Source of the DNA: Candidatus Woesearchaeota archaeon
GTDB lineage: Archaea; Nanobdellota; Nanobdellia; Woesearchaeales; UBA10216
Reading direction: 5' to 3'
NCBI GenBank assembly: GCA_016180195.1
Contig: JACPBS010000004.1
Span: 17,485-81,484 of the forward strand
DNA: 64,000 nt
Part shown: piece after piece, positions 14,485 through 41,890 of the stretch
How the letters are laid out: each line of letters begins with the position of its first letter
How positions within the stretch are numbered: the stretch's first letter is position 1
Made by a program: the position numbers and the translations under genes
The notes under the pieces: generated by a model
What the model saw: only the letters and a program-made list of their open reading frames with translations
What the model was told of the DNA's origin: nothing
Database searches by the model: none

Positions 14485-14988
14485 ATGATATCATTCAGGA
14501 AAGCCAACCAAGGGGATGCAAGGGCAATATGCAGCCTGATTTCCTCTTACCAGTTCAACAGAGATGGAACTGGAAGCCTTATCAGCATGCATGAGGCAGG
14601 GATTGTTGCTGTGATTGGGCAAAGCGGTGTTTTTGTTGTTGCTGAAAATGGAGAAGGTATAGTTGGTTGTTGTTCAATAGTTGAATATCCTATCAACGGA
14701 GAACGGTCTGCAGAAGTAAGGTCTCTTTCAGTTAGGAAGGAGTTCCAGTTGCAGGGTATTGGCAGTAAACTTGTGGGTTTATGCAAAGTTGAGGCTGAAA
14801 GTATGGGTATATCTGCTTTATACGCTCTGGTTCAACCTGAAAGACTCGAATTTTTCACAAAGCAGGGATTTGACCATGTTTATTTTCCCCAAGAAAAGAT
14901 CTGGAGGGATTGCTATAGGTGCCCTCGATATGGAAACAATTGCAACGAAATTCCTTTGGTCAATATAAATGGGGTGAATCAGAAATGA
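14485..14988 (+). CDS. GNAT N-acetyltransferase with C-terminal Cys cluster; possible short-form amino-acid (glutamate) N-acetyltransferase given arg context
   Basis: 167 aa. Motif A QLQGIGSKLV. C-terminal CYRCPRYGNNC. Stop overlaps argG start (ATGA). Confidence 0.55.
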   Translation: MISFRKANQGDARAICSLISSYQFNRDGTGSLISMHEAGIVAVIGQSGVFVVAENGEGIVGCCSIVEYPINGERSAEVRSLSVRKEFQLQGIGSKLVGLCKVEAESMGISALYALVQPERLEFFTKQGFDHVYFPQEKIWRDCYRCPRYGNNCNEIPLVNINGVNQK

Positions 14989-16229
14989 ATGATTACAAGA
15001 AGGTTGCATCTTTTGAAGCGGAAAAAGGCAAGGTAAAGAAGGTTGTGCTGCTTTATTCGGGCGGCCTTGACACTTCTGTGATGCTCAAGTGGATTCAGGA
15101 TGAGTATAAAGCAGAAGTTATAGCACTTACTGTTGACCTTGGCCAGCAGGCTGAGGATTTGAATGCAATACGGGAGAAGGCTTTGAAGCTTGGTGCGAAA
15201 AAAGCTCATGTTATTGATGCCAAGGACGAATTTGCAGATAGCTATATTGCTAAAGGAATTAAGGCAAATTCTTCTTATCAGGGCGCATATCACCTTGCAA
15301 CTGCAATTGGCAGGCCTTTGCTTGCAAAGATTGCTGTTGAGATTGCTGAAAAGGAAGGGGCAGACACAATTGCGCATGGCTGCACAGGAAAGGGCAACGA
15401 CCAGGTAAGGATTGATGCAACTGCAATCACTTTGAACCCGAAAATCAAGATACTTGCACCTGTCAGGGAATGGGCTATGGGAAGGGATGAGGAGATTGAA
15501 TATGCAAAAAAGAACAACATCCCCGTTCCAGTTACTAAGGAAAAGCCTTACAGCTATGATGAGAACATGTGGGGCTCAAGCGCAGAATCCGGGGAGATTG
15601 AGGAGCCTGATGTGATTCCTCCACTAAACAAGATCTTGAAGATTTGCAATCTTCCTGAAAATGCTCCGGACAGCCCTGAGTACGTTAAGCTGGGTTTTGA
15701 AAAGGGGATTCCCGTCTTGCTGAATGGGAAAAAAATGAAGCTTTCACTGCTTATTGATGCGTTGGCTAGGATCGGTGCAAACCATGGCATCGGGATCAGC
15801 TACCATATTGAGGACCGTGTTGTTGGCCTGAAAAACCGTGACCTGTATGAAATGCCTTCTGCAACAATAATAATTGCAGCCCATAAAAATCTGGAGAAAT
15901 ACGTCTGCACAAGGCAGGAAAACGAGTTCAAGACCCTTGTTGATGAGAAATGGGCCTATCTTTGCTATGGCGGGTTATGGCTTGAGCCTTTGATGAATGA
16001 ATTGAATGCTTTCTGTGACAAGGTTAATGAAAAGGTGAATGGAACGGTGACTGTGAAGCTCTTCAAGGGCAAGGTTGACGTTGTTGCTATTGAGTCTGAT
16101 TTCGCATTGTACGACAAGAAGCTGGTCACTTTCATGAAAGACCGCACATTCAACCAGAATGCAAGTGCAGGATTCATTGAGCTCTGGAGCCTTCAGATGA
16201 AGCTGGCAAACCAGGTGAAGAAGAAATGA
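14985..16229 (+). CDS. argG: Argininosuccinate synthase
   Basis: Start taken at internal ATG 14985 (MNDYKKVASFEAEKGKVKKVVLLYSGGLDTSV: PP-loop SGGLDTS). Conserved argG blocks throughout. Confidence 0.9.
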   Translation: MNDYKKVASFEAEKGKVKKVVLLYSGGLDTSVMLKWIQDEYKAEVIALTVDLGQQAEDLNAIREKALKLGAKKAHVIDAKDEFADSYIAKGIKANSSYQGAYHLATAIGRPLLAKIAVEIAEKEGADTIAHGCTGKGNDQVRIDATAITLNPKIKILAPVREWAMGRDEEIEYAKKNNIPVPVTKEKPYSYDENMWGSSAESGEIEEPDVIPPLNKILKICNLPENAPDSPEYVKLGFEKGIPVLLNGKKMKLSLLIDALARIGANHGIGISYHIEDRVVGLKNRDLYEMPSATIIIAAHKNLEKYVCTRQENEFKTLVDEKWAYLCYGGLWLEPLMNELNAFCDKVNEKVNGTVTVKLFKGKVDVVAIESDFALYDKKLVTFMKDRTFNQNASAGFIELWSLQMKLANQVKKK

Positions 16230-16522
16230 CAGGGATAGGATTGACAGTGATGGAATTGGCTGATATGCTGTTTTATTCAGCCGAAAAAGGGAATTTGCCG
16301 AGGAGTGACTTGGATATTTTGATATTAAATCCTTCAATTGCCGAATCAGTCATGGCTAGAATTTCAAATGGTTATGAGGTTGAAAGGATAATTGAAAGCC
16401 ATTGCCAGACTTATAATGCTGGATCTCCTGAATATAATCTGATGGTACAGAAAGCTGCAGTGGATGCTTTGTATAGCCTCAATAAAGCCTATAGAGATCA
16501 TAGCCAAATTAATTCATTTTAA
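16226..16522 (+). CDS. Hypothetical small protein between argG and argH
   Basis: 98 aa. Overlaps argG stop by 4 nt. No recognisable domain. Confidence 0.3.
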   Translation: MTGIGLTVMELADMLFYSAEKGNLPRSDLDILILNPSIAESVMARISNGYEVERIIESHCQTYNAGSPEYNLMVQKAAVDALYSLNKAYRDHSQINSF

Positions 16523-16572
16523 AGGGATAGATTTATATCGGCAACTGTTAAGGAAGGAAAAGGTGATTCGCT

Positions 16573-17745
16573 ATCAAGCTTTGGAAAAAGGAAGGGCCTG
16601 ATATCAACAGGGAGATTGAGAAGTTCTGTGTTGGGAACGAGCACTTAATAGATCAAAAGCTGGTGAAATATGACTGCATTGCCAGCATTGCTCACGCAAG
16701 GATGCTTAACAAGATGGGGGTTTTGAGCAGCACCGAGCTAAGGCAGCTTATTTTTGCATTGGAGGAGATCATCAGTCTGGATAATGAAGGGAAATTTTCC
16801 ATAGCTATTGAGCAGGAGGACTGCCACACGGCAATTGAGAATTATCTTACTGGAAAGCTGGGGGATGCTGGAAAGAAGATCCATGCGTGCAGGTCAAGGA
16901 ATGATCAGGTTATTGCAGCATTAAGGCTTTATGAGAAGGAAGAGTTGAGAGAGGTTGGGAAACTTGTACGGAATTTAATTTCGGCAATTACGAACTTTAG
17001 CAGCCGAAACTCAGGGATTCCACTCCCAGGCTACACTCATTTGAGGAAGGCGATGCCTTATTCTATTGGAAGGTGGGCTGAGTCATTCTCAGAGTCTTTG
17101 CAGGATGATATCTTGCTGCTGGATTCTGTTTCAATGCTGATCGATCAGAATCCCTTAGGCAGTGCTGCTGGCTTCGGGGTTCCAATTTTTAAAGTTGACA
17201 GGGAATTCACTGCAAGGCAGCTTAAGTTTGGCAGGGTTCAAAAGAACACTCTGTACGTTCAGAATAGCAGGGGAAAGTTTGAGCTTGCAATTTTGGATGC
17301 CCTCAATCAAGTAATGCTGGATATTAACAAGCTTGCCACAGATATGTGGCTCTTTACTTCTGCAGAATTTGGGTTTATTGAGCTTCCCAAGGAATTCTCA
17401 ATGGGCAGTTCGATAATGCCCCAGAAAGTAAATCCCGACGTGGTTGAGCTTCTGAGGGCAAAGGCAGGCGTGATGAAAGGGCATAGGGACAGCATCAATA
17501 GCATGATCCTGAACCTTCCTTCAGGATATAACGGCGATTTCAAGCTCACAAAGCAGCCTTTGATTGAGGGGTTTGAGCTGGCAAAGTCCTGCATCAGCAT
17601 AATGACTTTGGTGATCGGGGGCTTGAAGGTGAACGAGGGAAGATGCAAGGCCGCAATGACGCCTGAATTGTTTGCAACTGAAAAGGCTCTGGAGCTTGTT
17701 AAGAAGGGAGTTCCTTTTAGGGATGCTTACAGGAAAATGGGTTAG
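16573..17745 (+). CDS. argH: Argininosuccinate lyase; conserved N-terminus lacks a canonical start codon
   Basis: ORF track begins at GTG 16663, but the in-frame upstream translation IKLWKKEGPDINREIEKFCVGNEHLIDQKLVKYDCIASIAHARML matches the ArgH N-terminus (MKLWGGRF...SIAHA.ML). Signature HACRSRNDQVIAALRL is present. An in-frame TGA sits at 16564, and the only codon at the Met position is ATC (16573). Confidence 0.8.
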   Translation: MKLWKKEGPDINREIEKFCVGNEHLIDQKLVKYDCIASIAHARMLNKMGVLSSTELRQLIFALEEIISLDNEGKFSIAIEQEDCHTAIENYLTGKLGDAGKKIHACRSRNDQVIAALRLYEKEELREVGKLVRNLISAITNFSSRNSGIPLPGYTHLRKAMPYSIGRWAESFSESLQDDILLLDSVSMLIDQNPLGSAAGFGVPIFKVDREFTARQLKFGRVQKNTLYVQNSRGKFELAILDALNQVMLDINKLATDMWLFTSAEFGFIELPKEFSMGSSIMPQKVNPDVVELLRAKAGVMKGHRDSINSMILNLPSGYNGDFKLTKQPLIEGFELAKSCISIMTLVIGGLKVNEGRCKAAMTPELFATEKALELVKKGVPFRDAYRKMG

Positions 17746-17840: not shown

Positions 17841-18057
17841 ATGTTGTGTCAAGTACCCCGGGCTAAAGCCCAGGGCGTGTTCTTGAGCACACAAATCAAG
17901 CTTTGCTTGATTGTGCCCATTTGAGCTATGCTCAAATTGGGTCTCAGAAATTGTCAAGCTTTGCTTGATTGTGCCCATTTGAGCTATGCTCAAATTGGGT
18001 CTCAGAAATTGCTCGTCCTTACTGCGCACTAAAGTGCCACAGATTACGTCGAGAGCA
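17841..18057 (+). repeat. Hairpin-rich intergenic repeat, family A copy 1 (contains a perfect 58-bp tandem duplication, 17896-17953 / 17954-18011)
   Basis: About 150 bp near-identical to 40241..40405. Built from consecutive palindromes: GGGCTaaAGCCC, AATCAAGCtttGCTTGATT, CCCATTTGAGCtatGCTCAAATTGGG, GCACTaaAGTGC. Confidence 0.85.
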
Positions 18058-18113
18058 ATTTCTGACATTTCAATTCTGAATTTTCCCATCAATTCCACAA
18101 CAGTATTAAGGAT

Positions 18114-20533: not shown

Positions 20534-21463
20534 TTGATGGGTTTCAAAAACAGGGACATTATTTCTATAAGGGACTTTTCCAAGGCAGAGTTGTTGCACG
20601 TGCTTGATGTCGCGGCGGATATCGAGAGGAACGGAACAGGCTCTTTTTCGCAGCTGCTGAAGGGTAAAATCCTGGCCTCCCTTTTTTTTGAGCCTTCGAC
20701 AAGGACGCGGCTTAGTTTTGAGGCTTCAATGCACCGCTTGGGGGGAAGCGTTATCGGGTTTTCTGAGCCGGAGACAACATCTATCGTTAAAGGTGAGACT
20801 GCTCATGACACCATCAGGATTGTTGATGGTTATTGTGATATAATGGTAATGAGGCATCCTGAGTCAGGTTCTGCGACAAAAGCCGCCGAAGCAGCAAAAA
20901 ATCCTGTGATTAACGCGGGCGACGGTGCTAATGAGCACCCTACCCAGACATTTGTTGACCTGTATACGATTAGAAAAACAAAAGGTAGCCTTGAAAGGCT
21001 CAGTATAGGTTTCTTAGGGGATCTTAAGTATGGACGGACTGTTCACAGTCTTTCCCACGCACTGTCTCACTTCAGTCCTGATTTGTATTTCATTTCACCC
21101 GAATCATTGGCTCTGCCTGATAGGCTCATAAGGGAGCTTGAATCATCCAGGATCAAGATTGTGGAGGAGGAGAACCTTTCAAGGGTCAGTAGGCAGCTTG
21201 ACATACTTTATGTTACCCGTATCCAGAAGGAACGGTTCCTTGATGAGGGGGAGTATGCAAAGGTCAAGGGATTTTACAAGCTCGACAAGGAATTCCTGAA
21301 ATCTGCAAAGCCGGACTTGAAGATTCTCCATCCCCTTCCAAGGGTGGATGAGATCAATCCGCGTCTTGATTCAGAGAAGCAAAGCATTTACTTTGAGCAG
21401 GCACATAATGGAATCCCTGTAAGAATGGCCCTGCTTGGTTTGGTATTGGGCTGCTTCGAATAA
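20534..21463 (+). CDS. pyrB: Aspartate carbamoyltransferase catalytic subunit
   Basis: 309 aa. Has STRTR (FFEPSTRTRLSFE), HPTQ and HPLP motifs. Confidence 0.9.
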   Translation: MMGFKNRDIISIRDFSKAELLHVLDVAADIERNGTGSFSQLLKGKILASLFFEPSTRTRLSFEASMHRLGGSVIGFSEPETTSIVKGETAHDTIRIVDGYCDIMVMRHPESGSATKAAEAAKNPVINAGDGANEHPTQTFVDLYTIRKTKGSLERLSIGFLGDLKYGRTVHSLSHALSHFSPDLYFISPESLALPDRLIRELESSRIKIVEEENLSRVSRQLDILYVTRIQKERFLDEGEYAKVKGFYKLDKEFLKSAKPDLKILHPLPRVDEINPRLDSEKQSIYFEQAHNGIPVRMALLGLVLGCFE

Positions 21464-24160: not shown

Positions 24161-24655
24161 ATGGAGGAAATGGTTGACATAGTGGATGAGAAAGATAAGG
24201 TTATTAGTACCACAACAAAGAGGGAAATGGTTGAGAACGCGCTGCTTCACAGGGCGGCCAGGGTGGTATTGCTGAACAGCAAGGGAGAGGTTCTGGTCCA
24301 GAAGCGTTCTGAAAAGAAGAAAGTCTATCCGGGATGCTGGGATATTGGCGTTGCCGAAACCGTGCAGTCAGGCGAAAGCTTTGAGGAAGCCGCAACAAGG
24401 GGCTTGAACGAGGAGATGGGAGTCTCGGATGTTATCGGCGACTTCCTTTTCAAGACAAAATTCCTGTCAAAGGACAACAACGTCATCTACAAGGTTTTCG
24501 AGGCTTTTTATGACGGGGACGTGAAGGTTCAGGAGGAAGAGGTTGACGAGGCAAGGTTTGTGCCATTGGATGGTGCGATAAGCATTGCCAATCTGGAGAA
24601 ATTTTCGCCAACAGGGAAATTTATCCTGGATAAGTATGTTGAAATGAAAAGATGA
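24161..24655 (+). CDS. Nudix hydrolase (paralog 2)
   Basis: 164 aa. Nudix box GESFEEAATRGLNEEMGV (E-x7-R-x-U-x-EE-x-GU). Confidence 0.7.
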   Translation: MEEMVDIVDEKDKVISTTTKREMVENALLHRAARVVLLNSKGEVLVQKRSEKKKVYPGCWDIGVAETVQSGESFEEAATRGLNEEMGVSDVIGDFLFKTKFLSKDNNVIYKVFEAFYDGDVKVQEEEVDEARFVPLDGAISIANLEKFSPTGKFILDKYVEMKR

Positions 24656-27600
24656 CTTTAACAATTGGCCATAGGGGAGCTGGAAAACTGGAGCCTGAAA
24701 ATACCTTAAAGGCGATCAGGAAGGCAATCGAGCTCGGGCTGGACCAGGCTGAGATCGACTTGAGGCTGACAAAAGACGGCAGGCTTGTTGTTTTCCATGA
24801 CTACTCTACTGAAAGGATCAGTGCAAAAAAGATCATGTTGAGGGACCTTGATTTCTCAGAGCTGAAAAAAATCAAGCCAGACATCCCTTCTTTGGAGGAA
24901 GTCTTTGATGCGGCTGATGGAAAGGTAAGTCTGAGGATTGATGTCAAGGAGGACATCGCAGAGGAGCTTTGCCGATTTCTGAAGATGAATGGTTTTGAAG
25001 ATTGTGTTGTAATGTTCAGGAACGTGGACGAGCTGAGGAAAGTGAAAAAGCTTCTGCCGGGAATCGAGACAGCTTTCCTTGTTACGGATCCAAGCATAGA
25101 TCCAATAGCTGGAGCGAAGGAAGCGAATGCGGACGGGATCCATCTTGGAAGCAAATGCATTAGCAAGAAGGTAATTGATGCTGCAAGAACGGAAGGTTTG
25201 AGAATGGCTATAGGTGATTTTAGCACAGTTGGGGATATCAGGCAAGCGTTGGAATTCAACCCTGATTGCATCAGCAGCGAGAGGCCTGATTTGTTGGTCG
25301 GAATCATAAAGAATAAAAGAAATAAATTGAAGAAAATCTTGGTCATTGGTTCGGGTCCGATAAAAATCGGAGAAGCTGGGGAATTTGACTATTCTACTAG
25401 CCAGTGCCTAAAAGTTTTGAAGGAAGAGCACATTACTACCGTACTTGTCAATCCAAACATAGCCACCATCCAATCAGATAAGAAGATGGCGGACAAAATC
25501 TACTTCCTCCCGATTACTCCATACTTTGTTGAGAAAATTATCGAAAAAGAAAGGCCTGATGGAATCCTGCTTAGCTTCGGAGGGCAGACAGCGCTCAACT
25601 GCGGCGTGGCATTGCATGATTCAGGAATCCTTGAGAAATACTGCGTAAGTGTGCTGGGAACCCCTGTTGAAACGATAAATGCGACAGAGGACAGGGAGTT
25701 GTTCGTGCGGAAATTAAATGAAATAAGCCTGAAAACGCCAAAAAGCTTCGCTGTAAAAAGCGTGCAAAATGCAATCATCGCCGCAAGTAAGATAGGCTAC
25801 CCGTTAATCATCCGTTCCGCTTATGCTCTTGGCGGTTTGGGAAGTGCCATTTGCAGGAATGATGATGAGCTTGAGGAAGCGTCAAGGAAGGCTTTTGCAA
25901 GCGCTCCTCAGATCCTGGTTGAGGAATATCTTGAGCATTGGAAGGAAATAGAGTATGAGGTTGTCCGTGACAGATTTGATAACTGCATCACCGTTTGCAA
26001 CATGGAGAATTTTGACCCGATGGGCATCCATACTGGCGAGAGCATAGTAGTGGCGCCAAGCCAGACCCTGTCAAATTCCGAATACCATAAATTGAGGGAA
26101 ATTTCAATCAGGCTTATCAGGCATCTTGGCATAGTTGGTGAATGCAATGTGCAGTTTGCATTGGACAGGAACAGCGAGGATTACAGGATTATTGAGGTTA
26201 ATGCCCGCCTTTCAAGGAGCTCTGCCCTGGCCAGCAAGGCAACAGGCTACCCCCTTGCGTTTGTTGCTGCAAAGCTCGCCTTGGGCTATGGCCTTGCAGA
26301 GATAAATAACTCCATCACAAAATCAACAATTGCATGCTTTGAGCCGGCCTTGGATTATGTTGTCGTTAAGATCCCGCGGTGGGATTTGAAGAAATTCAGG
26401 AACGTGTCAAGGAGCATAGGGAGTTCCATGAAGTCAGTTGGAGAGGTTATGGCTATCGGGCGCAGATTTGAGGAGGCTTTGCAGAAGGCATTGAGGATGC
26501 TTGACATTGGTGCTTATGGTTTGGTCTGCAACGAGCCAGTATGTGCTGATCATGATATCGAGCACGAACTCGCAAATCCAACTGACGAGAGGATTTTCAC
26601 AGTGGTTGAGGCTATAAGGAAAGGTTACAGCCCTGAAAAAATAAGCAGTCTTTCAGGGATTGATTGCTGGTTCCTGGAAAAAATAAAGAACGTCGTTGAT
26701 CTTGAATCTGAATTGAGGCATTATAAGGATATTGCCTGTATCGGAAAGGAATTGCTGATGAGGGCAAAGCAGTTTGGATTTTCTGACAAGCAGCTATCCT
26801 TGATGTTTAATGTTGATTATACGGAAGTTATGAAAATCCGTGAATCAATGGGGATCAAGCCAGTTGTAAGGCAGATTGACACATTGGCAGCCGAATACCC
26901 TGCAAAAACTAATTATCTGTACCTTACCTATAATGGAGGTGAGGATGACATTGATTTCACAGGAAAAAGGAAAAAGATCATTGTTCTTGGATCAGGAGTT
27001 TACAGGATCGGGAGTTCTGTTGAGTTTGACTGGTGCTGCGTGAATGCGGTTTTTACACTAAGGGATCTGGGGTATGAGACGATTATGGTTAACTACAACC
27101 CCGAAACAGTCAGCACTGATTATGATGTCTGTGACAAGCTGTATTTTGATGAGATCTCTTTTGAGGCCGTGGTTGAGGTTTGCAGGAAGGAAAACCCGTT
27201 TGGCGTTATTATATCAATGGGCGGGCAGATCCCGAACAACATCGCGGTTAAGCTGCACAAGGCAGGGGTGAATGTTTTGGGGACGAGCCCTCAAAGCATT
27301 GACATGGCAGAGGATAGGCACAAGTTCTCTAAGCTTCTTGACGAGCTCGGGATAGATCAGCCAAAATGGAAGGAACTCACGGATTTTTCTGAGGCAAGGC
27401 TGTTTGCGAACAGGGTCGGGTATCCGGTTCTTGTCAGGCCTTCTTATGTCCTCAGCGGTGCTGCCATGAATGTGGCTTTCAATGATGATGACCTAGAGAC
27501 TTACCTTACAAGGGCTTCAAGGGTAAATCTTGACTATCCTGTGGTCATAAGCAAGTTCATGGTGAACTCAAAGGAAATTGAAATTGATGCTGTCGCAAGG

Positions 27601-28518
27601 CAGGGTATTATTGTTTCAGAGGCGATTTCTGAGCACGTTGAAAACGCGGGGGTCCATTCAGGGGATGCAACCATGATTTTTCCAGCAGTGAGGCTTTATC
27701 CTGAGACAGTTGAAAAGGTGAGGAGGATATCTTCGACTGTTGCTTCCAGTCTTAATATTTCTGGTCCATTCAATATCCAGTTCCTTGCAAAGGATAATGA
27801 GGTGATGGTGATTGAATGCAATCTGAGGGCCTCAAGAAGCTTTCCATTTGTTTCCAAGGTGAAGATGAATAACCTGATAGAGACCGCTACAAGGGCTATA
27901 GTCGGGGCTGATGTGGACCATGAAAAGCCAAAGGAAATACGTTATGTGGGGATTAAATCCCCGCAGTTCTCTTTTTCAAGGCTTTTGGGAGCAGACCCTG
28001 TTCTTTCGGTGGAGATGGCCTCAACCGGGGAAGTTGCTTGCCTGGGCTCTGATGTTTATGATGCATTCCTGAAGGCCATCCTGGCTGCAGGGTTTAAGAT
28101 GCCTAGAAAGAACATTCTCCTCAGCATCGGCGGGGATGAGAACAAGCAGAAATTTATCCCTTATGCCCGGAAGCTCGTGGAAAAGGGGTATTCGATTTTT
28201 GCAACTGACAATACTTCGAAAATGCTAGATGAAAGCGATATAGCAAATGTGCTGCTTCATAAGATCCATGAGGGAAAGTCGCCGAATATAAGCGAATATC
28301 TCACGAATGAGAAGCTGGACACGGTTATAAATATACCAAGCGGCTCTGGCAATAATACCAAAAGGAAGGCAAGGGACGGCTATATAATAAGGCGTGCTGC
28401 CGCAGACTTCGGCATTCCGTTAATAACAAATATTCAGCTTGCAATGCTGCTTGTTGATGCCTTGTGTTCCCTGAAGATTGATGCGCTTGATATCAGGGCA
28501 TGGGATGAATATAATTAA
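24652..28518 (+). CDS. carB: Carbamoyl-phosphate synthase large subunit with an in-frame N-terminal glycerophosphodiester phosphodiesterase (GDPD) domain
   Basis: 1288 aa continuous ORF. Residues 1-215 carry GDPD motifs (IGHRGAG, ENTLKA, EIDLRLTKDG, VVFHD, C-terminal GIISERPDLL). From LKKILVIGSGPIKIGEAGEFDYS onward it is canonical CarB with two ATP-grasp halves and an MGS-like C-terminal domain. An in-frame TTG at 25327 could give stand-alone CarB (MKKILVIGSGP). Confidence 0.85.
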   Translation: MTLTIGHRGAGKLEPENTLKAIRKAIELGLDQAEIDLRLTKDGRLVVFHDYSTERISAKKIMLRDLDFSELKKIKPDIPSLEEVFDAADGKVSLRIDVKEDIAEELCRFLKMNGFEDCVVMFRNVDELRKVKKLLPGIETAFLVTDPSIDPIAGAKEANADGIHLGSKCISKKVIDAARTEGLRMAIGDFSTVGDIRQALEFNPDCISSERPDLLVGIIKNKRNKLKKILVIGSGPIKIGEAGEFDYSTSQCLKVLKEEHITTVLVNPNIATIQSDKKMADKIYFLPITPYFVEKIIEKERPDGILLSFGGQTALNCGVALHDSGILEKYCVSVLGTPVETINATEDRELFVRKLNEISLKTPKSFAVKSVQNAIIAASKIGYPLIIRSAYALGGLGSAICRNDDELEEASRKAFASAPQILVEEYLEHWKEIEYEVVRDRFDNCITVCNMENFDPMGIHTGESIVVAPSQTLSNSEYHKLREISIRLIRHLGIVGECNVQFALDRNSEDYRIIEVNARLSRSSALASKATGYPLAFVAAKLALGYGLAEINNSITKSTIACFEPALDYVVVKIPRWDLKKFRNVSRSIGSSMKSVGEVMAIGRRFEEALQKALRMLDIGAYGLVCNEPVCADHDIEHELANPTDERIFTVVEAIRKGYSPEKISSLSGIDCWFLEKIKNVVDLESELRHYKDIACIGKELLMRAKQFGFSDKQLSLMFNVDYTEVMKIRESMGIKPVVRQIDTLAAEYPAKTNYLYLTYNGGEDDIDFTGKRKKIIVLGSGVYRIGSSVEFDWCCVNAVFTLRDLGYETIMVNYNPETVSTDYDVCDKLYFDEISFEAVVEVCRKENPFGVIISMGGQIPNNIAVKLHKAGVNVLGTSPQSIDMAEDRHKFSKLLDELGIDQPKWKELTDFSEARLFANRVGYPVLVRPSYVLSGAAMNVAFNDDDLETYLTRASRVNLDYPVVISKFMVNSKEIEIDAVARQGIIVSEAISEHVENAGVHSGDATMIFPAVRLYPETVEKVRRISSTVASSLNISGPFNIQFLAKDNEVMVIECNLRASRSFPFVSKVKMNNLIETATRAIVGADVDHEKPKEIRYVGIKSPQFSFSRLLGADPVLSVEMASTGEVACLGSDVYDAFLKAILAAGFKMPRKNILLSIGGDENKQKFIPYARKLVEKGYSIFATDNTSKMLDESDIANVLLHKIHEGKSPNISEYLTNEKLDTVINIPSGSGNNTKRKARDGYIIRRAAADFGIPLITNIQLAMLLVDALCSLKIDALDIRAWDEYN

Positions 28519-40240: not shown

Positions 40241-40405
40241 AAATCTTGCTATGTGTCAAGAACCCGGGCTAAAGCCCAGGGCGTGTTCTTGAGCACACAA
40301 ATCAAGCTTTGCTTGATTGTGCCCATTTGAGCTATGCTCAGATTGGGTCTCAGAAATTGCTCGTCCTTACTGCGCACTAAAGTGCCACAGATTGCGTCGA
40401 GAGCA
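40241..40405 (+). repeat. Hairpin-rich intergenic repeat, family A copy 2
   Basis: Near-identical to 17841-18057 but with a single copy of the 58-bp unit. Lies in the purF upstream region. Confidence 0.85.
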
Positions 40406-40479
40406 CAAATAAACGCTTGGCGTTTATTGTGCAATAAACCGAAGCATTTTCCGCGTTGTATTAGGGGTGTTTTTGATTT

Positions 40480-41890
40480 GTGTGGTATTTTTGCGGTAAT
40501 TGGTAGCAGTCAGGCAGCCGCAGAGCTGTATATTGGCTTGACTCATCTTCAGCATAGGGGTCAGGATGCTGCAGGGATTGCTGCTTCTGACCGCTCAGGC
40601 GGTCTTAGGATTTTCAAGGGCAAGGGGCTTGCCCTGGATATTTTCAGCGAGGAAACAATACGCGATCTGGGCGGGTTTATGGGCATTGCCCATAATCGTT
40701 ACCCGACTGCTGGAGTTGGTGACTCTACCGAATACCAGCCTTTTTCTGATGGCGAGGTTTCAATTGCTTTTAATGGAAATATCATTAATTATCCGAGCTT
40801 GAAATCTGCAATTGAGCAGCAGGGCAGGAAATTCTGTTCTAGCTCTGATGGCGAGCTTCTGCTTTGTATTTTTGCGGACGCTTACAGGAAGGGCGGGTTT
40901 TTCCATGCTGTAAGGGAAGTCCAGGAGAAACTTGTTGGAGGGTATTCTGTTGTGGGTGTTGTTGAGGGGAAGGGGATTTTTGCCTTCAAGGACCCTAATG
41001 GGATAAGGCCATTGATAATGGGTAGACGGGGTGGCCCTGATGTAGGTTATGCTTTCGCTTCTGAAAGCATTGCTTTGTCAGTTGATGGTTATAATAGTTT
41101 GCGCGATTTGAGGAACGGCGAAGCTGTTTTTGTTGGAAGCGATTTGAAGATTGAATCTAAGGTTATTATTGGCAGGGATCATGCCCCTTGCATCTTTGAG
41201 TACGTATATTTTTCCTCTGTTGAGTCTGTTCTCAACGGAATGCCTGTTTATAGTGTGAGGAGAGGGCTTGGAAAGGCTTTGGCTAATAAGGTTAAGGAGC
41301 TTTGGCCTGATATGGGGATTGATGTTGTCATACCTGTTCCTGATACTAGCAGGCCTGCCGCTGTTTCGCTTGCGCAGTCTCTTGGGGTTCCTTATGAGGA
41401 GGGTTTGGTGAAGAACAGGTATATTGGCCGTACTTTTATCATGCCATCGCAGAAGATTAGGGAAAGCGCCCTGAAGGTTAAGCTTAAGCCTATCGAGTCA
41501 GTAATAAGGGGAAAGAACGTGATGGTTGTTGATGATTCCATTGTGAGGGGAACCACTTCAAGAAGGATCGTCAGGCTTCTGAGGGATTTCGGGGCGAGGA
41601 AGGTTTTCCTCCTGAGCACTTTTCCTCCAATAAGGCATCCTTGTGTTTACGGGATTGATTTTACCAATGAGAATGAGCTTATTGCTCATGGAAAAACAAT
41701 TGATGATGTTGAGAGGGAGATTGGTGCTGATAGGCTTGTGTATATGGATCCTGATGCTTTGGGAAGGATCGTTGGAATAAATGGCATCTGCATGGCTTGT
41801 CTTAACGGCATTTATCCCACTTCCATGGATCATGCAAGGGAGATGCAGGAGCAGAGGCTGAAGGATAAGGGGAGGATGGTGGAAGGATGA
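40480..41890 (+). CDS. purF: Amidophosphoribosyltransferase
   Basis: The longest ORF starts at 40334 but runs through the repeat. The TTG at 40480 gives M-CGIFAVIG with the catalytic N-terminal Cys of class II glutamine amidotransferases. PRTase motif VMVVDDSIVRGTT. C-terminal Cys ligands of a 4Fe-4S-type PurF (CMACLNGIYP). Confidence 0.85.

What the first reader, a model, noticed from the sequence alone, without database searches (positions are those of the whole stretch)
16564..16665. argH: conserved MKLW N-terminus is encoded but begins with ATC directly after an in-frame TGA
Upstream of the GTG chosen by the ORF track, the same frame encodes IKLWKKEGPDINREIEKFCVGNEHLIDQKLVKYDCIASIAHARML. 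This aligns with the ArgH N-terminus MKLWGGRF.........SIAHA.ML. The codon at the Met position is ATC (16573), preceded by TGA (16564), and no ATG/GTG/TTG exists in between. The possibilities are initiation at a non-canonical AUC codon, a point error or mutation (ATG to ATC), or N-terminal truncation with initiation at GTG 16663. The last would remove about 30 conserved residues.
Basis: seen in the sequence. Interest (0 to 1): 0.5.

Follow-up and report, generated by a model that had tools for sequence, protein, structure and literature searches.

The report
Archaeal argH with ATC start codon
An arginine-synthesis gene (argH) of an uncultured Woesearchaeota archaeon really has ATC where its relatives have the ATG start codon, and it is probably still translated from that ATC through a strong ribosome-binding site; this is a rare but known kind of start that GenBank already annotates.

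Summary
In the argH frame, TGA (16564) is followed by TTC GCT ATC(16573) AAG CTT TGG. No ATG, GTG or TTG occurs before GTG 16663. The 30 codons in between encode the conserved ArgH N-terminus.

It is not a read or assembly error. Four Logan contigs from four sequencing runs match the window exactly. GenBank protein MBI2133107.1 (390 aa, MKLWKKEGPD...) shows that NCBI already annotates the CDS from this ATC.

The gene looks functional. It keeps 90 of 91 family-invariant residues, shows no rate acceleration, and sits next to an intact argG.

ATC lies 5 nt after AGGTGAT, one of the strongest Shine-Dalgarno sites in the window. GTG 16663 and ATG 16714 have weak ones.

All 71 other species surveyed have a canonical start there. 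Within the window's own 12-member Woesearchaeota clade, however, three more genes carry ATC or ATT at the SD-defined start. At least two of the four arose independently. All four have stronger SDs than their ATG-bearing relatives.

Best reading: SD-driven initiation at near-cognate AUC, probably at reduced efficiency. This is a new member of a known kind, of modest interest, with no experimental proof.

The parts
16573..16575 (+). ATC codon at the family's start position; proposed near-cognate initiation codon, read as Met by initiator tRNA
   Evidence: for the sequence; the ortholog L013 has AAAAGGTGATTTTGG ATG AAG CTA TGG against the window's AAAAGGTGATTCGCT ATC AAG CTT TGG, the same SD and the same 5-nt spacer. 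NCBI protein MBI2133107.1 is 390 aa and begins MKLWKKEGPD, so its CDS starts at this codon.
16560..16567 (+). Shine-Dalgarno sequence AAGGTGAT. It contains the in-frame TGA 16564-16566 and the out-of-frame GTG 16563-16565.
   Evidence: duplex with the 16S 3' end is -10.2 kcal/mol, which would rank 4th among 56 gene starts in the window. Only 0.6% of random positions reach this value; the same AAAAGGTGAT plus 5 nt plus ATG occurs at gene 24161.
16573..17745 (+). argH CDS as read from ATC (390 aa plus stop); short-form argininosuccinate lyase
   Evidence: TIGR00838 argH scores 316 bits against a cut-off of 279.5; relatives are 389-404 aa; 90 of 91 family-invariant columns are kept.
16573..16662 (+). 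30 codons encoding the conserved N-terminus (IKLWKKEGPDINREIEKFCVGNEHLIDQKL), which would be lost if translation began at GTG 16663
   Evidence: for conservation. D27 (numbering from I1) aligns with D33 of duck delta-2 crystallin.
16663..16665 (+). First in-frame canonical codon (GTG). Gene callers on the Logan contigs chose it, giving a 360-aa product.
   Evidence: SD energy is only -5.0 kcal/mol.
16714..16716 (+). In-frame ATG chosen by gene callers on two other Logan contigs, giving a 343-aa product
   Evidence: SD energy is -2.6 kcal/mol.
16563..16601 (+). Out-of-frame GTG followed by a 12-codon ORF (MIRYQALEKGRA, stop TGA 16599-16601). The GTG lies inside the SD.
   Evidence: SD energy for this GTG is -4.5 kcal/mol.
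16532..16539 (+). TATA-like ATTTATAT preceded by purine-rich AAAGGGATAG; possible internal archaeal promoter (inferred, not shown)
   Evidence: it lies 30-31 nt upstream of 16563, the same distance as the TATA boxes of the leaderless genes in this window.
16226..16522 (+). Small ORF (98 aa, no family hit) held in the same position between argG and argH in all clade members examined except L175 and L174
   Evidence: In L003, L005, L006 and L172 it overlaps the argH start. In the window it ends 50 nt before the ATC.
14985..16229 (+). argG (argininosuccinate synthase), intact, with an ATG start and a strong SD; it supplies the ArgH substrate
   Evidence: PRK00509, 524 bits; 85% identity to the L005 argG; SD -11.7 kcal/mol.

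Best explanation
The window comes from a Candidatus Woesearchaeota (DPANN archaeon) contig. Its argH is an operon-internal gene (GNAT, argG, small ORF, argH) whose ancestral ATG start has been replaced by ATC.

The gene is still functional. The small ribosomal subunit is placed by a strong Shine-Dalgarno sequence (AGGTGAT, 16561-16567), which sets the codon 5 nt downstream, AUC 16573, in the P site. There it is read as a near-cognate start by initiator Met-tRNA. The product is the full 390-aa enzyme beginning MKLW, probably at a lower initiation rate than with AUG. The strong SD partly compensates for the weak codon.

Shown: the sequence itself, its reproducibility, the SD geometry, the intact and constrained coding sequence, recurrence in relatives, and the public annotation.

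Inferred: that AUC is actually used for initiation, and how efficiently.
For: 1. The sequence is real. Four Logan contigs from four runs are 100% identical across the site.

2. The RBS points at ATC. AGGTGAT plus a 5-nt spacer gives -10.2 kcal/mol, 4th of 56 starts in the window and reached by 0.6% of random positions. GTG 16663 has -5.0 and ATG 16714 has -2.6. The same SD and spacer precede ATG at window 24161 and at the argH of ortholog L013.

3. There is no decay. 90 of 91 family-invariant columns are kept, including 6 of 6 in the N-terminal segment. Tajima relative-rate tests with outgroups L007 and L008 are non-significant, with 38-41 against 26-35 and 20-23 against 29-35 unique changes. 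There are no internal stops. The neighbouring argG is intact and 85% identical to that of a relative.

4. The family norm is a canonical start. 71 of 71 other species have one within 1-4 codons of KLW, or 10-13 codons in two cases. The window's ATC is therefore derived.

5. It recurs. L007 carries ATC where its sister L171 carries ATG in an otherwise identical context, AGGTAAAAAAT[C/G]GCAAAGCT. L008 and L172 carry ATT at the same aligned codon, 5 nt after GAGGTGG or GGTGG. The NJ tree places the window and L007 each inside ATG-bearing sister groups, with 93% and 83% support.

6. The pattern looks compensatory. The four ATC/ATT-bearing genes have SD energies of -7.0 to -10.9 kcal/mol. Six ATG-bearing clade members have -2.9 to -6.1, with no overlap. 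This matches the link between weak starts and strong SDs reported in PMC5622118.

7. NCBI annotates the CDS from this ATC: MBI2133107.1, 390 aa, MKLWKKEGPD.

8. There is precedent. AUC initiates at 1-2% of AUG in E. coli with an N-terminal Met (10.1101/063800). About 30% of putative alternative initiation sites in Haloferax volcanii lie at near-cognate codons (PMC7261190).
Against: No experiment shows initiation at AUC in any archaeon, and archaeal aIF1 discriminates against non-canonical starts (PMC8211752).

If the start loss is recent, the intact coding sequence says nothing about present function.

The closest sequenced relative is only 75% identical, so the window's ATC cannot be traced to a single G-to-C change as it can in L007. 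The 5' region upstream of codon K2 does not align with the sister genes.

argF is missing from the operon, which might indicate a decaying pathway.

A TATA-like element 30-31 nt upstream of 16563 could give a transcript that starts inside the SD.

Three of the four runs probably come from the same project as the MAG.
Confidence: 0.6

Rival explanations
1. argH in this lineage is a young pseudogene or a severe hypomorph. The start codon was lost, little or no full-length enzyme is made, and too little time has passed for further damage to accumulate.
For: There is no canonical start. argF, present in the operon of relatives, is absent here, and DPANN archaea are prone to losing biosynthetic pathways (general knowledge). 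AUC supports only 1-2% of AUG initiation in E. coli (10.1101/063800). AUG-to-AUU switches are extremely rare among annotated starts, 1 in 61,358, and no AUG-to-AUC switch was recorded (PMC5622118).
Against: There is no rate acceleration, no lost invariant residues beyond the family norm and no stops or frameshifts in 390 codons. A top-ranking SD is kept exactly 5 nt before the ATC. argG, which would otherwise make a dead-end product, is intact with a strong start. The same class of codon (ATC or ATT) recurs in relatives, each time with a stronger SD than in the ATG-bearing genes. Random inactivation would not be expected to produce that pattern.
Confidence: 0.22
2. The functional product starts at the first canonical codon, GTG 16663 (360 aa), or at ATG 16714 (343 aa), as ab initio gene callers predict. 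The upstream 30 codons are then an untranslated relic.
For: Gene callers made these calls on the Logan contigs. These are the only in-frame canonical codons.
Against: Their SDs are weak, at -5.0 and -2.6 kcal/mol. The truncation removes K4, L5, W6, E18, F20, V22, G23, N24 and the invariant D29; D29 aligns with D33 of duck delta-2 crystallin. N-terminal truncation of delta-crystallin dissociates the tetramer (PMC2779060), and from general knowledge the active sites of this enzyme family are built from several subunits. The upstream segment stays open and keeps 6 of 6 invariant columns. No surveyed ortholog starts at that position.
Confidence: 0.07
3. Translation starts at the out-of-frame GTG 16563, which lies 30-31 nt downstream of a TATA-like box as in the window's leaderless genes. 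It reaches the argH frame through a +1 shift within the first four codons. Alternatively, a fixed 1-nt insertion has frameshifted an ancestral GTG-initiated N-terminus (M-F-A-I-K-L-W).
For: ATTTATAT at 16532-16539 lies at the leaderless-gene distance from GTG 16563. L008 and L172 have an in-frame GTG three codons before their ATT, which parallels GTG, two codons, then ATC in the window if one base is removed.
Against: The GTG is part of the SD AGGTGAT. The same string precedes ATG in L013 and at window 24161, where it is plainly an SD. The GTG has no SD of its own (-4.5 kcal/mol). There is no slippery motif, and the KLW codons (16576-16584) lie upstream of the short ORF's stop, so any shift would have to occur within 4 codons. 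In L008 and L172 the SD energy also favours ATT (-10.9 and -8.7) over the GTG (-1.9 and -2.9). Leaderless translation generally needs AUG (PMC5622118, introduction).
Confidence: 0.06
4. The C at 16575 is a sequencing or assembly error and the true codon is ATG.
For: A single-base error is a common cause of an apparently missing start in MAGs.
Against: Four separately assembled contigs from four runs, one with a very different accession range (SRR4343428), are 100% identical over up to 3.7 kb, including this base. The site is not in a homopolymer.
Confidence: 0.03

Closest known systems
E. coli infC (IF3) and pcnB: genes that start at the near-cognate AUU codon
   Same: An AUH codon sits where AUG is expected, it is served by an SD, and it is read by initiator tRNA as Met. 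The gene is functional despite a weak start (10.1101/063800).
   Different: infC's AUU is conserved across many bacteria and is the sensor of an IF3 autoregulatory loop (general knowledge). Here the codon is AUC, the organism is an archaeon that uses aIF1, aIF1A and aIF2, the codon is not conserved among orthologs but recurs sporadically in one clade, and no regulatory role is shown.
Reporter-measured initiation at AUC in E. coli (Hecht et al., 10.1101/063800)
   Same: It shows that AUC behind an SD gives Met-initiated protein at about 1-2% of the AUG level. That is the mechanism proposed here.
   Different: It used a bacterial system with synthetic constructs. No natural AUC-initiated E. coli gene was reported there.
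Weak starts paired with strong SDs (Belinky, Rogozin and Koonin 2017, PMC5622118)
   Same: Weaker start codons go with stronger or better conserved SDs. In this clade the ATC/ATT-bearing argH genes have stronger SDs than the ATG-bearing ones.
   Different: That study concerned GUG and UUG. It found AUG-to-AUU in only 1 of 61,358 starts and recorded no AUG-to-AUC.
Canonical argininosuccinate lyase and delta-crystallin (E. coli ArgH 1tj7, duck delta-2 crystallin 1hy1)
   Same: It matches the same superfamily, with the GSSIMPQKVNPD signature loop, the T-H of PGYTHLRKAMP and a conserved N-terminal segment.
   Different: This family is 390-400 aa and ends near profile position 387 of 455, so it lacks about 65 C-terminal residues.

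Membership tests
Argininosuccinate lyase (ArgH, TIGR00838; Lyase_1 superfamily) | Score above the curated equivalog cut-off | tested here: met
   316.2 bits against a cut-off of 279.5.
Argininosuccinate lyase (ArgH, TIGR00838; Lyase_1 superfamily) | Signature loop GSSxMPxKxNP and the catalytic T-H motif | tested here: met
   GSSIMPQKVNPD and PGYTHLRKAMP are present. These columns are invariant across 20 sequences.
Argininosuccinate lyase (ArgH, TIGR00838; Lyase_1 superfamily) | Full-length architecture including the C-terminal ASL_C2 region | tested here: not met
   The match stops at profile position 387 of 455. PF14698 is absent for the window's own product (P0001) and absent, weak or faint in close relatives. 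This holds for the whole short-form family, not only this gene.
Argininosuccinate lyase (ArgH, TIGR00838; Lyase_1 superfamily) | Genomic association with argG and other arginine genes | tested here: met
   The order is GNAT, argG, small ORF, argH, with pyrB and carAB downstream. argF is missing from the operon.
Genes with a near-cognate AUH initiation codon (infC/pcnB type) | No in-frame canonical start between the upstream stop and the conserved N-terminus | tested here: met
   TGA 16564, TTC, GCT, ATC; the next canonical codon is GTG 16663.
Genes with a near-cognate AUH initiation codon (infC/pcnB type) | Ribosome-binding site at functional spacing from the AUH codon | tested here: met
   AGGTGAT with a 5-nt spacer, -10.2 kcal/mol, reached by 0.6% of random positions.
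Genes with a near-cognate AUH initiation codon (infC/pcnB type) | The non-canonical codon is kept among orthologs | tested here: inconclusive
   It is not conserved: 71 of 71 other species have a canonical start. However, ATC or ATT occurs at the SD-defined start in 4 of 12 members of the window's clade, from at least 2 independent events.
Genes with a near-cognate AUH initiation codon (infC/pcnB type) | Experimentally determined N-terminus or initiation site | not testable with these tools
   The organism is uncultured and no proteomic or ribosome-profiling data were available.
Pseudogene | Internal stops or frameshifts, loss of invariant residues, or accelerated evolution | tested here: not met
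   390 codons are open, 90 of 91 invariant columns are kept, and relative-rate tests are non-significant.
Programmed +1 frameshift (prfB type) | Slippery codon followed by an in-frame stop, with an SD about 3 nt upstream, placed so that the shifted product is the conserved protein | tested here: not met
   The ORF from GTG 16563 stops at 16599, downstream of the KLW codons, and the first 4 codons hold no slippery motif.

The most novel reading that the evidence does not exclude
In one clade of Woesearchaeota, the argH start codon has been replaced several times by AUC or AUU, each time paired with a strengthened Shine-Dalgarno sequence. On the most novel reading, this is a selected way to set or regulate ArgH output. 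It could, for example, make argH translation sensitive to start-codon stringency (aIF1 activity), as infC's AUU senses IF3 in bacteria, or it could reflect relaxed start-codon discrimination in these archaea. That would make near-cognate AUH codons genuine, recurrent natural start codons in Archaea.
Probability: 0.15. Interest if true: 0.6.

Novelty: new member of a known kind. Interest (0 to 1): 0.33.

Why it matters
Natural genes that start at AUC are very rare, and I found none documented for archaea in the literature I searched. If the AUC start is real, ab initio gene callers cut 30-47 residues off this enzyme, as happened on the Logan contigs. Metabolic reconstructions of DPANN genomes could then misjudge whether it works. 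The recurrence of ATC or ATT at the same gene in related genomes, coupled to stronger ribosome-binding sites, gives a small natural data set on how archaeal initiation tolerates and compensates for near-cognate starts. In practice the case is already handled correctly by NCBI's homology-guided annotation.

Tried and rejected
1. Alternative genetic code or TGA read-through. Rejected: in-frame TAA 16549 and TAG 16528 lie just upstream, and no start codon lies between TAA 16549 and TGA 16564.

2. C-terminal truncation as a sign of a pseudogene. Rejected: the ORF ends about 65 residues short of canonical ArgH, but all close relatives are 389-404 aa, so this is a family trait.

3. Homopolymer (A6) indel error as the cause of the missing start in L007. 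Rejected: the sister L171 has the same A6 run and uses ATG in that frame.

4. Programmed frameshift from GTG 16563. Rejected: there is no slippery site, and the GTG is part of the SD.

5. A regulatory RNA structure around the start. The fold is unremarkable, with z = 0.45, and the window has no Rfam hits.

6. A genome-wide habit of ATC/ATT/ATA starts. Scans of stop-to-start distances and of SD-plus-ATH sites in the window found no clear case other than argH.

7. The metagenome-contig scan returned almost only distant long-form ArgH genes and added nothing.

8. Fetching the GenBank-annotated gene by its exact product failed: P0121 is not on record in the contig index. The claim about the annotation therefore rests on the protein's sequence and length.

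9. The paper on N-terminal truncation of goose delta-crystallin (PMC1316294) is not held, so it is cited only through PMC2779060.
Full report
**What is in the sequence.**
In the argH frame the window reads TAG (16528), TAA (16549), GGA AGG AAA AGG, TGA (16564), TTC GCT, ATC (16573), AAG CTT TGG AAA AAG and onward. No in-frame ATG, GTG or TTG occurs before GTG 16663. The ORF lister therefore reports 16663..17745, 360 aa. The 30 codons from ATC to GTG encode IKLWKKEGPDINREIEKFCVGNEHLIDQKL. ATC is separated from TGA by two codons, so it is not directly adjacent.

**What the gene is, and in what organism.**
The product read from ATC (390 aa) scores 316 bits on TIGR00838 argH, above the 279.5 cut-off. 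Upstream lie a GNAT acetyltransferase and argG. Downstream lie pyrB, carA and carB. Homologs in the large protein collection are nearly all 389-404 aa. They come mainly from DPANN archaea (Woesearchaeota, Nanoarchaeota, Aenigmarchaeota, Micrarchaeota) and from various uncultured bacteria. The match ends at profile position 387 of 455, which is therefore a family trait and not a truncation.

Exact look-up of neighbouring proteins identifies the source as a 170,554-nt contig of a Candidatus Woesearchaeota archaeon. The window has archaeal gene-start architecture. First genes of operons have a TATA box (TTTATA) 30-32 nt before the ATG and no leader. Internal genes have GGAGGTGA-type Shine-Dalgarno sequences.

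**Is it an error?**
Four Logan contigs are 100% identical to the window over 1.7-3.7 kb, including the ATC. They were assembled separately from four runs: SRR4343428, SRR12113425, SRR12113431 and SRR12113419. Three of the runs probably belong to the project that produced the MAG. The fourth has an unrelated accession range. The base is not in a homopolymer. I put the chance of a sequencing or assembly error at about 3%.

**Where the family starts.**
In an alignment with 19 relatives, the N-terminus M(A)KLW, IEKF.VGN and D29 is strongly conserved. In 73 argH loci read from species-representative genomes and from close relatives, 71 of 71 loci other than the window and L007 have a canonical start. 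It lies 1-4 codons before KLW, or 10-13 codons before in two cases, and it is ATG in all but six. The ortholog L013 reads AAAAGGTGATTTTGG ATG AAG CTA TGG. The window reads AAAAGGTGATTCGCT ATC AAG CTT TGG. The window's ATC therefore sits exactly where an ATG sits behind the same SD and the same 5-nt spacer. The in-frame TGA and the out-of-frame GTG 16563 are simply letters of the SD, AGGTGAT.

**Strength of the ribosome-binding site.**
Pairing of the 20 nt before ATC with the 16S 3' end gives -10.2 kcal/mol. That would rank 4th among 56 gene starts in the window. Only 0.6% of random positions in the window reach it. GTG 16663 has -5.0, ATG 16714 has -2.6 and GTG 16563 has -4.5. Gene 24161 in the window has the identical AAAAGGTGAT plus 5 nt plus ATG. 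Local RNA folding is unremarkable, with z = 0.45.

**Is the gene decaying?**
The evidence says no.
- The window keeps 90 of 91 columns that are invariant in the 19 relatives. Relatives themselves lose 0-4. It keeps 6 of 6 in the N-terminal 32 residues.
- Tajima relative-rate tests against its sister genes are non-significant. With outgroup L007 the counts are 38-41 window-unique against 26-35 sister-unique changes. With outgroup L008 they are 20-23 against 29-35.
- argG next door is intact, 85% identical to that of a relative, and has an ATG start with a strong SD. If ArgH were missing, ArgG would make a dead-end product.

One caveat concerns argF. It lies between GNAT and argG in relatives but is absent here, and the only carbamoyltransferase in the window is of the pyrB type. 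argF may lie elsewhere in the genome.

**Why a start at GTG 16663 is unlikely to give a working enzyme.**
It would remove K4, L5, W6, E18, F20, V22, G23, N24 and the invariant D29. D29 aligns with D33 of duck delta-2 crystallin, which I recall, from memory only, to be an active-site residue. Truncating the N-terminus of goose delta-crystallin dissociates the tetramer (PMC2779060, citing Lee et al. 2005).

**Recurrence in relatives.**
L007 (69% identical) reads TAA AAA ATC GCA AAG CTA TGG behind GAGGT plus 5 nt. Its sister L171 reads AGGTAAAAAATGGCAAAGCT. The L007 ATC is thus a plain G-to-C change of the sister's ATG in the same context, including the same A6 run.

L008 and L172 have ATT AGC AAG CTA TGG at the aligned codon, 5 nt after GAGGTGG and GGTGG respectively. 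Each also has an in-frame GTG three codons upstream, but that GTG lies inside the SD. SD energies favour ATT (-10.9 and -8.7) over the GTG (-1.9 and -2.9).

An NJ tree places the window inside an ATG-bearing group with 93% support, and L007 beside ATG-bearing L171 with 83% support. At least two events are therefore independent.

The four ATC/ATT-bearing genes have SD energies of -7.0 to -10.9 kcal/mol. Six ATG-bearing clade members have -2.9 to -6.1, with no overlap. The Mann-Whitney p-value computed on 4 against 4 was 0.029. With 4 against 6 and complete separation, the exact two-sided value is 2/210, about 0.01 (my arithmetic). This is the compensatory pattern described for GUG and UUG starts in PMC5622118. 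That study found AUG-to-AUU in only 1 of 61,358 starts and recorded no AUG-to-AUC.

**What is already known.**
NCBI protein MBI2133107.1 is 390 aa and begins MKLWKKEGPD. Apart from the initiator Met at position 1, it equals the translation from ATC 16573, so the public annotation already uses ATC as the start. Gene callers on the Logan contigs chose GTG 16663 or ATG 16714 instead.

In E. coli, AUC, AUU, AUA and CUG initiate at 1-2% of the AUG level, and AUC gives an N-terminal Met (10.1101/063800). In Haloferax volcanii, about 30% of putative alternative initiation sites were at near-cognate codons, but they were set aside from further analysis (PMC7261190). Archaeal aIF1 discriminates against non-canonical starts (PMC8211752). 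I found no documented natural AUC-initiated archaeal gene.

**Mechanism proposed.**
On the operon mRNA, the anti-SD of the 16S rRNA pairs with AGGUGAU. This places AUC 16573 in the P site. Initiator Met-tRNA reads it with a third-position mismatch. Full-length ArgH is made at a reduced rate, which is adequate for a catalytic enzyme in a slow-growing symbiont. The strong SD raises the rate.

The sequence, the geometry, the constraint on the coding sequence and the recurrence are shown. Actual initiation at AUC, and its efficiency, are inferred.

**An unexplained detail.**
ATTTATAT (16532-16539), preceded by purine-rich AAAGGGATAG, lies 30-31 nt before 16563. That is exactly the TATA-to-ATG distance of the leaderless genes in this window. 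If it is an active promoter, a second transcript would begin inside the SD with a 5'-terminal GUG in the wrong frame, opening a 12-codon ORF that stops at 16599. I treat this as a possible internal promoter and as weak support for the frameshift rival, not as part of the main model.

**Verdict.**
The codon is real, and the gene is most likely expressed from AUC (confidence 0.6). The main rival is a young pseudogene or hypomorph (0.22). The case is a new member of a known kind, namely near-cognate AUH starts. It is already annotated that way in GenBank and is unproven experimentally. The recurrence in the clade, together with the SD compensation, is the only part that goes beyond the ordinary.

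Noticed in passing
window 17857-18058 and 40263-40405: A roughly 145-nt repeat that folds very stably (-59.4 kcal/mol, z = -4.9) is present twice in the window at 98-99% identity. The copy downstream of argH carries an exact internal 58-nt tandem duplication (17896-17953 and 17954-18011). It has no Rfam match, and Logan contigs break inside it. It could be a MITE-like element or an unknown structured RNA. The ATG of ORF 40334..41890 lies inside the repeat, so that ORF's true start is probably further downstream.
   Followed up: partly
window 14485-16229, compared with L005, L006, L007 and L008: Relatives have argF (ornithine carbamoyltransferase) between the GNAT gene and argG. In the window argF is absent and the GNAT stop overlaps the argG ATG (14985-14988). 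The only carbamoyltransferase in the window (20534-21463) scores as pyrB. The arginine module may therefore start from citrulline, or argF may lie elsewhere in the genome.
   Followed up: partly
window 16573-17745 and all relatives (P0002-P0120): This whole ArgH family is 389-404 aa and ends near position 387 of the 455-position TIGR00838 profile, so it lacks about 65 C-terminal residues of canonical ArgH. It is widespread in DPANN archaea, in candidate-phyla-radiation (CPR) bacteria, Marinimicrobia and Spirochaetes. Whether the short form is a fully active lyase was not examined.
   Followed up: no
window 16226-16522; L003 857-1219; L005 2742-3041; L006 2664-3020; L007 2190-2417; L008 2236-2475; L171 1274-1492; L172 1347-1514: A small ORF (55-120 aa, no Pfam or NCBIfam hit, poorly conserved in sequence) always sits between argG and argH in this clade and in several members overlaps the argH start. 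In L008 and L172 its TAG stop overlaps the ATT codon (ATTAG), which suggests termination-reinitiation coupling.
   Followed up: partly
window 16532-16539: A TATA-like ATTTATAT with a purine-rich BRE-like stretch (archaeal TFB recognition element) upstream lies 30-31 nt before the out-of-frame GTG 16563. This matches the TATA-to-start distance of the window's leaderless genes. It may be an internal promoter whose transcript would begin inside the argH Shine-Dalgarno sequence.
   Followed up: partly
window 24652-28518: The carB-like ORF (1288 aa) carries an N-terminal glycerophosphodiester phosphodiesterase (GDPD) domain at residues 7-213, ahead of the carbamoyl-phosphate synthase large-chain domains. 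This is either an unusual fusion or two adjacent genes merged by the ORF listing.
   Followed up: no
L175 (P0007, GCA_900218215.1) 98-1815: In this relative argH directly follows the GNAT gene, with no argG, argF or small ORF in between. The annotated start (MHITQQRKK-MAKLW) lies 9 codons upstream of the family start. The internal ATG has the better SD (-5.8 against -2.0 kcal/mol), so the annotated N-terminal extension is probably wrong.
   Followed up: no
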